From assembly GCF_056712565.1 (NCBI RefSeq), contig NZ_CM160072.1: 64,000 nt of DNA; one strand, written 5' to 3'. Position numbers: made by a program. The first letter of the stretch is position 1. Each line of letters opens with the position of its first letter. Of the stretch, positions 24,001-27,000 are shown piece by piece.

Positions 24001-27000
24001 GTTAGTAAAACGTACGCCTTCATCCATTAATGAAAGGAGCGTCGGCGTTGATTTTTGCGCAGCTTCAATGGCTTTATCTATCCCTATTTTGTAGGTATCG
24101 ACAACTTCACGATTTTCCATTGTTTTTGGGTCAAAAGATCCCTTATCAAAAGGAAGTTGTCCATAACCAAGATCATCCATGGTCAGTACGATAATATTTG
24201 GCTTTCCTTTGGTACTGTATTCAGTCGGCGTAAAGTCTGAGAAAGCAACGTTTGTTTTGGTTGCTTTCAGCTTTACATCATCTGCCGCATGAGCAGCAAA
24301 TGCAGCCATACCAGATGCCAGTATCAAAGATATCGAGGTACTTACGACACTTTTCTTTAATGCAGACTTCATAAATGTTCCTCTTCTTATTGTACTTAAT
24401 TCCAAAGTAATTTTACGAAGAGAAATAAGTTAATGTAAGTGAAGTTAGTCACATAAATAGATAGCAAATTTAGCTAAAAAAAGGGAAATAACAGTCCATA
24501 ACGCATTGACATTACTTTCTGTTCTACTAAGTAATTTCTCGCCGATAAACAACTAATCTATTGATATTTAATAAATTATTGTATTTTACTGCCAAAATGC
24601 CGAACTGAGATCATAAATAATCATGCAACAGGTTATGCAAATGCATAAATATGTGATGACTGTCACTTATTTATTTCAAGAAATATATCGCCTAAAAACA
24701 ACGCGGGGCAGGGAATGGCTGCCCCATTTAATTCTTACGCAGCGTGTGTGGTTGACTACTCGTTAGCAAATAATCAAATAGCTAAAGCATTCATCGTGTT
24801 GTCCGTGTTCATACCCGTGTGCCTTTGACAACGGTACTCCTTAGAAACTCTCTTTGGACTGTTGCCGAAATGTTTGCGGAACGCATAAATAAAATAAGAT
24901 GTACTCGCATAACCACATTGTTCGGCAATTTTATTGACTGAACCTTCTACGCGTATCAAATTTTTTGCGTGCTGCATTCTGGCATCTAAAAGAATCTGTG
25001 AGAATGTCGTTTGCTCTTGCTTTAGTTTTTTCTTCAACAGGCTTTCACTGATGTACAGGCAGTCACAAATATCTTTCAGCTTCCATGGGTGCGCCAGCTT
25101 CATGTTGACAATATTTCTCACTTTCCCGGAAACGGATAGCACACCGTTAGTTAATAGTGTAATGAAACCTTTGCATGCGGCAAAAATAGACAGGCAAGAA
25201 AAAAGCAAAAGCTCTGAAAAATTATGATGATTGCGTTCTTCCGAGTTGAGATAAGCAATCATTTCATTAAGCAATCCAGTCGGTACATTTGAAGCACGTA
25301 AAAACTTCGCAGGAACAGGCATCGTCACTGTCTGGATGTTAGTGCATTGTAGATATTTTTTAATGGTATTTTCATTAAATCCGATTTCTTTGAAATGCCG
25401 CTCATAAGGTTCAAAATGCGTACGAACAGCGTTATCTACCATTAGGATCTCGCCGTCAGAGAAGGCGTAATCTTTATCTAAAATGTTAGCGTTGAAGGCA
25501 TGATGAATAAATATAACAGAACAAACGAGCGACATTTTATCTCCTTAAAACAATAAAGTTTATATCGATACTTTTTTAACATTTCACATTTATAATTTGC
25601 TGTTTATTTTCAGTCTAGCAAACTATTGATAATGAAATGTGTAAGATCTCTTGCCATGCGACCCATTTCTGAAATGCCCAGCTGATCAATTGCCGAAAAA
25701 ATGGCTATCAACGTAAGTGTCAGTAACAAGACAACCACAATTACAGACATGATTTCTTTATAGTTGTCTCTTTGCGTGATTTTGTTTTTCACTGTGGTCG
25801 CATGCATTTCAAATGTGTTTATTTAGCGGATAACGTTAAAAATCGTTAATCAGTATGATTAATATAACAGGCTGGATAAAAGAGGAAATAGGACTGGCAC
25901 TTCAGTACTGAGCGGAGTTTCTTACAGCTGTAGGCAGAAGTTTATATCTTATAGTGTGTGGTTTAATTTAATCCATGTGAGCAAATCGCGCGATAATAGT
26001 CAATGAGGAATTCTTCTGCTGTGCGGATGACAGCAGAAGAAATGAGGAGGCGAATTAATTTGATGGTTCTAATTCAACCGGAATACTTTTATAGCCAGGA
26101 ATGCCACTTAATGGATCGTGGTTATCAAGTGTTAGCATGTGATTCGATTCTGGAAAATAGGTCACCAGTGAGCGGTCAGCCATAGGGTAAATGACCACTT
26201 TTAATCTATCCATGCGGCGTGAGCTACGTTTACCGTCTGGCGTGAGTGCAATAAGATTAACTCTTTCGCCGTTTTTTACACGGCAAATTTTAGCTTGTTT
26301 AGCACTCATAAAGACCACATCTCGTTGACCGAATACCCCTCGATAGCGATCATCCATACCATAAATCGTCGTGTTGTACTGATCGTGACTGCGTACTGTC
26401 GCCATGACCAGCTTACTGTTAAACGCTGAAGAGGGATCTTCTAACAGCCCTTTACTGGTAATGAAATTAGCCTTACCTGACGACGTCATCCAGCGCCTTT
26501 CAGCTGCTGCGTTTATCAGGTGAAAACCACCAGGATGACGGATGCGCTGGTTATAGTCGGCAAACTCTGGCAGCACAGCTTCAATGTCATTGCGAATGCG
26601 ATCATAATCTTCCACCAGATACTCCCAGGCTACCACGCTCTGGGGTAGTGCTGCTTGCGCGATTCCCGCGACCACTGCACACTCTGATTTCAGCATTACA
26701 CCGGCGGGTTTTAACACACCACGCGAGGCATGAATCATCGACATTGAATCTTCAACGGTTACCGCCTGCGCACCGCTTTTTTGCATGTCAATCTCGCTAC
26801 GTCCCAGAACCGGCAGAATATAGCTATGCCGTGCGGTCAGCAGATGAGAGCGGTTAAGCTTAGTGGCTACGTGTACCGCCAGATCTAATTGCGTTAACGG
26901 TACAGCGCTCGCTTCCCGATCTGGCATTGCCAGTGCAAAGTTGCCCCCCATGCAGATCAATGCTCGAGCTTGCCCCGTACATATAGCTTGCATGCTGGCG

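What the first reader, a model, noticed from the sequence alone, without database searches (positions are those of the whole stretch)
25808..26054. safA retains an EvgA box while ydeP's own promoter is gone
TTCTTACAGCTGTAGGCA at 25919-25936 is a near-consensus EvgA site upstream of safA-ydeO, so that branch of the EvgAS acid-resistance cascade looks intact. The ydeP branch is disrupted by the upstream deletion.
Basis: partly seen in the sequence, partly recalled or inferred. Interest (0 to 1): 0.3.

Follow-up and report, generated by a model that had tools for sequence, protein, structure and literature searches.

The report
Known EvgA operator upstream of safA-ydeO
The 18-base motif is the well-known, species-wide binding site through which the acid-response regulator EvgA switches on safA-ydeO in E. 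coli. The neighbouring ydeP gene really has been cut in half by a rare 3.5-kb deletion, so this is correct but ordinary.

Summary
TTCTTACAGCTGTAGGCA sits at 25919-25936, about 120 bp upstream of safA on the minus strand. It is the only match in the window at one mismatch or fewer (0.00 expected by chance).

- **Identity of the site.** It is base-for-base identical to the K-12 MG1655 and UTI89 sites. With the 19 bases next to it, it occurs with no more than about one mismatch in 5370 of 5426 complete E. coli genomes. It is therefore the known EvgA box of the safA-ydeO promoter.
- **Downstream genes.** safA (65 aa) and ydeO (253 aa) are full length.
- **ydeP.** "Promoter gone" understates the damage. 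A 3,478-bp deletion removes ydeP codons 1-324, its upstream region with its own EvgA box, ydeQRS and the 3' end of the usher gene. The same junction occurs in only 2 of 5426 complete genomes. The window also carries an IS2 in the usher gene that those two genomes lack.
- **"Branch intact" holds only in cis.** In APEC E18055, which shares the deletion, EvgA is 100% identical to the K-12 protein. Its EvgS has the same RefSeq protein accession as UTI89 EvgS, an allele shown experimentally not to respond to mild acid. evgAS is not in the window.

Verdict: already known biology plus a rare pseudogenising deletion. Low interest.

The parts
25919..25936 (-). EvgA box of the safA-ydeO promoter. It reads TGCCTACAGCTGTAAGAA on the coding strand and is an 8-2-8 imperfect inverted repeat.
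   Evidence: only hit in the window at <=1 mismatch, 0.00 expected; identical to K-12 and UTI89; the core is invariant in 8 divergent alleles and the site is present in 5370/5426 genomes.
25861..25869 (-). Candidate extended -10 element (TGtTATATT) of safAp. It is inferred, not mapped. It would put the transcription start near 25854 and the box centre near -73.5.
   Evidence: Read from the sequence. Invariant in alignment A3. The consensus scan found no -35/-10 pair on the minus strand, as expected for an activator-dependent promoter. No transcription-start data were found in the papers held.
25808..26054 (-). ydeP-safA intergenic region, which is the safA-ydeO regulatory region.
   Evidence: 100% identical to UTI89, APEC E18055, Z0117EC0054 and the type strain DSM 30083.
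26011..26041 (-). 12-bp perfect stem with a 7-nt loop immediately after the ydeP stop codon. It resembles a terminator but has a weak U tract.
   Evidence: -19.2 kcal/mol, z = -3.5. It was not called by the terminator scan because the T run is too poor. Invariant in 8 alleles.
25610..25807 (-). safA, 65 aa, full length.
   Evidence: 5 substitutions relative to K-12. Annotated as safA in the relatives.
24774..25535 (-). ydeO, 253 aa, full length.
   Evidence: 5 substitutions relative to K-12. Annotated as ydeO in the relatives.
26055..27363 (-). 3' remnant of ydeP (1309 of 2280 nt, roughly codons 325-759). There is no start codon and no promoter.
   Evidence: Annotated as 'incomplete, missing N-terminus' in the two genomes with the same junction. 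Pfam domain limits.
27363..27364 (.). Junction of the 3,478-bp deletion (L001 5665-9142 is absent). There is no useful microhomology. The usher reading frame stops three codons past the junction.
   Evidence: The junction occurs in 2 of 5426 complete genomes.
27906..29236 (-). IS2-type element, 1331 bp, inserted in the remaining usher gene, with a 5-bp target duplication GTTAC. Its transposase ORFs point towards ydeP' and safA.
   Evidence: Absent at this position from the two genomes that share the deletion. No complete genome carries this junction.

Best explanation
The motif is the canonical operator through which phosphorylated EvgA (a NarL/FixJ-type response regulator) activates the safA-ydeO operon.

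An EvgA dimer is expected to bind the 8-2-8 inverted repeat, which reads TGCCTACA-GC-TGTAAGAA on the coding strand. The repeat lies about 60 bp upstream of a conserved extended -10 element (TGtTATATT) that has no recognisable -35. RNA polymerase therefore needs the activator. The box would be centred near -73.5, a class-I-like position; this geometry is inferred, not mapped. The transcript encodes SafA, which activates PhoQ, and YdeO, which activates gadE.

In this genome the site and both genes are unchanged. A 3,478-bp illegitimate deletion has removed ydeP codons 1-324, the ydeP promoter with its own EvgA box, ydeQRS and the 3' end of the usher gene. The second EvgA-controlled output at this locus is therefore dead.

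The cis branch is competent. In this B2/ST95-type lineage, however, the sensor EvgS is most likely the UTI89 allele, which does not respond to mild acid. In that case the operator would be occupied only under whatever other condition activates that sensor.
For: - **The site is real and above chance.**
- The same pattern recovers sites in every K-12 EvgA-target promoter examined: safA and ydeP, and emrK, frc (a perfect match) and two at yfdX. That is 4 hits against 0.26 expected in 18 kb, all in the same orientation relative to the gene.
- **The box is identical to well-studied strains.** It is 100% identical to K-12 MG1655 and to UTI89.
- **The box is better conserved than its surroundings.** Its core and the 6 bases downstream are invariant in 8 alleles whose intergenic identity falls to 89.9%. 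The 37-nt segment containing it is at least 95% identical in all 5370 genomes that have it. The whole intergenic region, by contrast, is below 95% identical in 1026 records.
- **The literature supports direct EvgA control.** safA-ydeO is transcribed from an EvgA-regulated promoter and EvgA binds that promoter directly (PMC5706723, PMC9496106 and bioRxiv 10.64898/2026.05.06.723403).
- **The safA promoter suffices on its own.** A single-copy plasmid carrying only safA-ydeO complements a ydeO deletion, and constitutive EvgS switches it on in strain MP1.
- **This exact promoter allele works.** UTI89, whose intergenic region is identical to the window, activates SafA- and YdeO-dependent reporters once K-12 evgAS is supplied.
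- **The regulator is unchanged in a sister genome.** EvgA in APEC E18055 is 204/204 identical to K-12 EvgA.
- **The deletion is documented.**
Against: - EvgA binding and the transcription start were not measured here.
- I could not retrieve the primary papers that footprinted the site (Masuda & Church 2003; Itou et al. 2009). The 18-bp consensus is therefore recalled from memory and validated only by the in-session regulon scan.
- The consensus promoter scan found no minus-strand promoter. The -10 assignment and the -73.5 position are inferences.
- evgAS is not in the window. Its state is inferred from one sister genome.
- Some papers describe ydeP-safA-ydeO as one operon, and the hairpin after ydeP lacks a good U tract. 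Part of normal safA-ydeO induction could therefore come from the deleted ydeP promoter.
Confidence: 0.85

Rival explanations
1. The box is a retained but physiologically idle relic. Because this lineage's EvgS does not sense acid, the safA-ydeO branch is never induced, and the ydeP deletion is the first visible step in the decay of the EvgA regulon.
For: - EvgS in APEC E18055, which shares the deletion, has the same protein accession as UTI89 EvgS.
- UTI89, Nissle 1917, CFT073 and MP1 do not induce the Evg system at pH 5.7.
- MP1, also phylogroup B2, has lost safA-ydeO altogether.
- ydeP is destroyed here.
Against: - The box and promoter core are invariant across 5370 genomes, B2 strains included. 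That argues for continued selection, and hence for some activating signal.
- evgA, evgS, safA and ydeO are all full length.
- The deletion is found in only 2 of 5426 complete genomes. It is a recent accident rather than a lineage-wide trend.
Confidence: 0.1
2. safA-ydeO normally receives much of its induction by read-through from the ydeP promoter, as a ydeP-safA-ydeO operon. On this reading the deletion also weakens the safA branch, even though the local box is retained.
For: - PMC11052181 refers to a ydeP-safA-ydeO operon.
- The hairpin after ydeP has a poor U tract and was not called a terminator.
Against: - safA-ydeO alone on a single-copy plasmid fully complements a ydeO deletion and responds to constitutive EvgS.
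- PsafA-gfp reporters are induced on their own.
- The safA region has its own near-consensus, invariant box.
Confidence: 0.08
3. The motif is a chance palindrome with no regulatory role.
For: At <=3 mismatches one hit in 64 kb is within the chance expectation (0.58).
Against: - At <=1 mismatch, 0.00 hits are expected by chance.
- The site is identical to K-12 and nearly invariant across the species.
- It has the same orientation, and lies in the same kind of promoter position, as five other sites in EvgA-target promoters.
Confidence: 0.01

Closest known systems
EvgA box of the E. coli K-12 safA (b1500)-ydeO promoter. Direct EvgA binding is cited in PMC9496106.
   Same: The 18 bases are identical, at the same distance from safA, and in the same gene context between the ydeP stop codon and safA. 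EvgA is identical in the sister genome.
   Different: Nothing differs in the site itself. There are 12 substitutions elsewhere in the 247-bp intergenic region relative to K-12, giving about 95% identity. The upstream neighbour ydeP is truncated.
E. coli UTI89 safA-ydeO locus (Roggiani et al. 2017, PMC5706723).
   Same: The ydeP-safA intergenic region is 100% identical. The SafA protein accession is the same. EvgS and EvgA have the same accessions in the genome that shares the window's deletion.
   Different: UTI89 keeps an intact ydeP with its promoter. It has a different, independent deletion inside the fimbrial operon, from ydeR to the usher gene.
E. coli MP1 13-kb deletion that removes safA-ydeO (PMC5706723).
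   Same: A phylogroup B2 strain with a deletion at this locus that prunes the EvgA network.
   Different: MP1 lost safA-ydeO itself. Here safA-ydeO and its operator are spared, and ydeP and ydeQRS are lost.
ydeP EvgA box (K-12 L002 6731-6748; L001 6884-6901).
   Same: It has the same motif and orientation, about 250 bp upstream of ydeP.
   Different: It is absent from the window, because it lies inside the deleted interval L001 5665-9142.

Membership tests
EvgA operator (EvgA box) of the EvgA regulon | 18-bp inverted repeat matching TTCYTACA-N2-TGTARGAA. | tested here: met
   One mismatch; the only hit in the window at <=1 mismatch, with 0.00 expected.
EvgA operator (EvgA box) of the EvgA regulon | Lies in the promoter region of an operon known to be directly EvgA-activated, in the orientation shared by other targets. 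| tested here: met
   It lies 120 bp upstream of the safA ATG. The orientation matches the ydeP, emrK, frc and yfdX sites of K-12. The literature on safA-ydeO is covered.
EvgA operator (EvgA box) of the EvgA regulon | Sequence identity with the K-12 site, for which EvgA binding is reported. | tested here: met
   18/18 identical to MG1655. The binding experiment itself is taken from the literature, and the primary paper is not held.
EvgA operator (EvgA box) of the EvgA regulon | A cognate EvgA with the same DNA-binding domain is encoded in the genome. | tested here: inconclusive
   evgAS lies outside the window. In APEC E18055, which shares the deletion and is 100% identical over 24700-27400, EvgA is 204/204 identical to K-12 EvgA.
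EvgA operator (EvgA box) of the EvgA regulon | EvgA-dependent binding and induction. | not testable with these tools
   Indirect support only. UTI89, whose promoter is identical, activates SafA- and YdeO-dependent reporters when given K-12 evgAS.
Acid-inducible EvgS-EvgA-SafA/YdeO cascade (functional as in K-12) | The sensor EvgS responds to mild acid (pH 5.5-5.7). | tested here: inconclusive
   The sister genome carries EvgS WP_001331804.1, the same accession as UTI89 EvgS. It is 96.66% identical to K-12 EvgS, the figure given for UTI89 in Roggiani's Table 1. That allele was reported to be acid-unresponsive. The source genome of the window was not available.
Acid-inducible EvgS-EvgA-SafA/YdeO cascade (functional as in K-12) | Intact safA and ydeO coding sequences. 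| tested here: met
   65 aa and 253 aa, with no frameshift or premature stop and 5 substitutions each relative to K-12.
Functional ydeP (EvgA-induced molybdopterin oxidoreductase) | Full-length 759-aa ORF with its own promoter and EvgA box. | tested here: not met
   Only 1309 of 2280 nt remain. Codons 1-324 and the upstream 3.5 kb are deleted.
Rho-independent terminator after ydeP | GC-rich hairpin followed by a U tract. | tested here: inconclusive
   The hairpin is strong (-19.2 kcal/mol, z = -3.5). The tail is UUCCUCAUU, and the scan called no terminator.

The most novel reading that the evidence does not exclude
The most novel reading is regulon pruning. In an ST95-type B2 sublineage whose EvgS no longer senses acid, the enzyme output ydeP is being lost. 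The signalling outputs, safA (to PhoQ) and ydeO, and their operator stay under selection because EvgS now reports a different, host-related cue. The IS2 pointing towards ydeP' and safA might add a new, EvgA-independent transcriptional input by reading through the weak ydeP hairpin.
Probability: 0.12. Interest if true: 0.35.

Novelty: already known. Interest (0 to 1): 0.1.

Why it matters
The finding matters little in itself. It confirms that a textbook regulatory site sits where it should, unchanged.

Its modest value is as a caution. A conserved operator does not show that a pathway works. The same lineage carries a sensor allele already shown to be blind to acid, and one of the two EvgA-controlled outputs at this locus has been destroyed by a rare deletion. 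For anyone phenotyping acid resistance in ST95-type avian or extraintestinal E. coli, this strain is a natural ydeP-null, ydeQRS-null background with safA-ydeO intact.

Tried and rejected
- **Primary papers.** I tried to read Eguchi 2007 (PNAS), Masuda & Church 2002 and Ma 2004. None is held. Full-text searches for 'EvgA box' and 'TTCPyTACA' found no paper giving the sequence. The consensus is therefore from memory, validated by scanning K-12 EvgA-target promoters.
- **Sigma-70 scan.** It found no minus-strand promoter in 25500-26200. I assigned an extended -10 by eye and conservation and flagged it as inferred.
- **Terminator scan.** It found nothing, so the ydeP hairpin is reported only as terminator-like.
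- **PhoP box in the safA leader.** The literature reports that PhoP represses PsafA. The only candidate, 25836-25852, is a 3-mismatch match, and such matches occur at the chance rate (77 against 75.7 expected). I do not claim it.
- **Exact source genome.** I searched for it through the IS2-usher junction. No complete genome has that junction.
- **Rfam scan of the whole window.** It found nothing in or near the finding.
- **Local BLAST.** Loci L003-L005 and L017 did not appear in the scripting sandbox, so local BLAST against them failed. I used DNA alignment instead.
- **Not run.** A species-wide scan of genome contigs for the 18-mer. The literature already states that safA and evgAS are confined to E. 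coli and Shigella, so the scan would add little.

Full report
**Observation.** The window carries ydeO (24774-25535) and safA (25610-25807) on the minus strand. Upstream of safA lies a 247-bp intergenic region (25808-26054), then the stop codon of ydeP at 26055-26057. TTCTTACAGCTGTAGGCA occupies 25919-25936. On the coding strand it reads TGCCTACA-GC-TGTAAGAA, an 8-2-8 imperfect inverted repeat. It has one mismatch to TTCYTACANNTGTARGAA. At three or fewer mismatches, one hit in 64 kb is unremarkable (0.58 expected). At one mismatch or fewer it is the only hit, and none occurred in 100 shuffles.

**Validating the motif.** I could not retrieve the papers that defined the EvgA box, so I tested my recalled consensus on K-12. 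In the ydeO-hipB region it finds the safA site and a second site about 250 bp upstream of ydeP. In the 18-kb emrKY-evgAS-yfdXWUVE region it finds four sites against 0.26 expected. One lies between emrK and evgA, one is a perfect match upstream of frc, and two lie upstream of yfdX. All are in promoter regions of operons that the literature describes as EvgA-activated. All six K-12 sites share one orientation: the TGTAAGAA half is proximal to the gene. The window's site follows the same rule.

**Identity and conservation.**
- The window's box is 18/18 identical to MG1655.
- The whole intergenic region is 100% identical to UTI89, APEC E18055, Z0117EC0054 and the type strain DSM 30083.
- The intergenic region is present in 5374 of 5426 complete genomes, and 1026 records are below 95% identical to the window.
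- In eight alleles spanning that range, the box core and the following bases (GCCTACAGCTGTAAGAAACTCCG) never change. Only the first T of the 18-mer becomes C, in two alleles, while the 40 bases upstream are riddled with substitutions.
- A 37-nt probe (the box plus 19 downstream bases) matches 5370 genomes. In every one the match is at least 95% identical over at least 80% of the probe, which amounts to no more than about one mismatch.

This is a classic phylogenetic footprint.

**Mechanism.**

*Shown elsewhere.* safA-ydeO is one operon expressed from an EvgA-regulated promoter, and EvgA binds that promoter directly. PhoP-P represses it, and YdeO feeds back negatively on it. A single-copy plasmid carrying only safA-ydeO complements a ydeO deletion and is switched on by constitutive EvgS.

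*Inferred here.* The only promoter-like feature between the box and safA is an invariant extended -10, TGtTATATT (25869-25861), with no -35. This would start transcription near 25854 and centre the box near -73.5, consistent with class-I-type activation by an EvgA dimer. No transcription-start data were available to me.

**ydeP.** I aligned the window to an intact relative, EC21GDE043 (L001).
- Window 22001-27363 matches L001 302-5664, and the match resumes at L001 9143. The missing 3,478 bp comprise ydeP codons 1-324, the ydeP upstream region with its EvgA-like box at L001 6884-6901, ydeQ, ydeR, ydeS and the last 135 nt of the usher gene.
- Full-length YdeP has its molybdopterin oxidoreductase domain at residues 108-485, so the remnant cannot be functional.
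- The junction shows no useful microhomology, and the usher reading frame stops three codons beyond it.
- The identical junction is present in only two of 5426 complete genomes. These are a canine isolate, Z0117EC0054, and the avian O2:K1:H7 isolate APEC E18055, both from South Korea.
- The window additionally carries a 1331-bp IS2-type element in the remaining usher gene (27906-29236, target duplication GTTAC). Neither of those genomes has it, and no complete genome carries that junction.

**Is the branch 'intact'?** In cis, yes: the box, the promoter core, safA (65 aa) and ydeO (253 aa) are all unbroken. The sensor is not in the window. In APEC E18055, which is 100% identical to the window over 24700-27400, evgA and evgS are full length. 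EvgA there is 204/204 identical to the K-12 protein. EvgS is 1157/1197 (96.66%) identical to K-12 EvgS. That is the figure Roggiani et al. give for UTI89, and the protein carries the same RefSeq accession as UTI89 EvgS, WP_001331804.1.

Roggiani et al. showed that UTI89, like most B2 strains they tested, does not induce the Evg system at pH 5.7 and is acid-sensitive in exponential phase. Supplying K-12 evgAS restores induction of SafA-dependent and YdeO-dependent reporters and restores acid resistance. This has two consequences. This exact promoter allele is competent when EvgA is phosphorylated. But in this lineage acid is probably not the signal that phosphorylates it.

**A residual uncertainty.** Some authors write 'ydeP-safA-ydeO operon'. 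The strong hairpin after ydeP (26011-26041, -19.2 kcal/mol, z = -3.5) has a poor U tract and was not scored as a terminator. Some read-through from the now-deleted ydeP promoter may therefore normally add to safA-ydeO expression. The plasmid complementation data argue that this contribution is not essential.

**Comparison and novelty.** This is the known EvgA box of the known safA-ydeO promoter, unchanged. The only unusual features are the rare ydeP-to-usher deletion and the extra IS2. Both are ordinary kinds of genome decay. There is a precedent in another B2 strain, MP1, which lost safA-ydeO itself. I rate the finding as already known and of low interest.

Noticed in passing
window 27906-29236: A 1331-bp IS2-type element with a 5-bp target duplication (GTTAC) sits inside the remaining usher gene, 545 bp from the deletion junction. 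Its transposase ORFs point towards ydeP' and safA. It is absent from the two complete genomes that share the deletion, and no complete genome has this junction.
   Followed up: partly
window 27364-33000; L001 6974-14672; L017 31444-35910; L002 6821-10537: The ydeQRST-type fimbrial operon next to ydeP is broken in a different way in each strain examined. The window has a deletion plus IS2. EC21GDE043 has an IS3-family element at another usher site. UTI89 has a ydeR-to-usher deletion. K-12 has a truncated ydeT and lacks the chaperone and fimA-like genes. Many genomes carry IS3-family insertions at various positions in this usher gene.
   Followed up: partly
window 33168-33184 (-) and 32163-32179 (+): A perfect PhoP-box direct repeat (TGTTTAGTCGCTGTTTA) lies about 275 bp upstream of the fimA-like first gene of that fimbrial operon. 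A one-mismatch copy lies just downstream of that gene. That is 2 hits against 0.41 expected, with 7 of 100 shuffles reaching 2. It may mark PhoP control of a cryptic fimbria; this was not pursued.
   Followed up: no
window 25836-25852 (-): TGATTAACGATTTTTAA lies between the proposed -10 element and the safA ATG and loosely resembles a PhoP box (3 mismatches). That would fit the reported PhoP repression of PsafA, but matches of this quality occur at the chance rate. In three divergent alleles the segment becomes a neat GATTAACGATGATTAACG direct repeat.
   Followed up: partly
L002 4072-4089 and 6731-6748; L006 5514-5531, 15507-15524, 16501-16518 and 16539-16556: All six EvgA-box-like sites in K-12 target promoters are asymmetric in the same way. 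The better half-site (TGTAAGAA on the coding strand) is always the gene-proximal one, and the distal half reads CCTACA rather than CTTACA in most of them.
   Followed up: no
window 58093-58306 (-): A full-length match to the Hfq-binding sRNA family STnc560 (Rfam RF01407, 281.9 bits). It was the only Rfam hit in the window.
   Followed up: no
L017 38156-47497 (UTI89): UTI89 carries a filamentous-phage-like block (Zot-family, GspD-like secretin and replication protein II/X genes) between the SDR oxidoreductase gene and hipA. This block is absent at that position in APEC E18055. By collinearity it is probably absent from the window too, but I did not check the window there.
   Followed up: no
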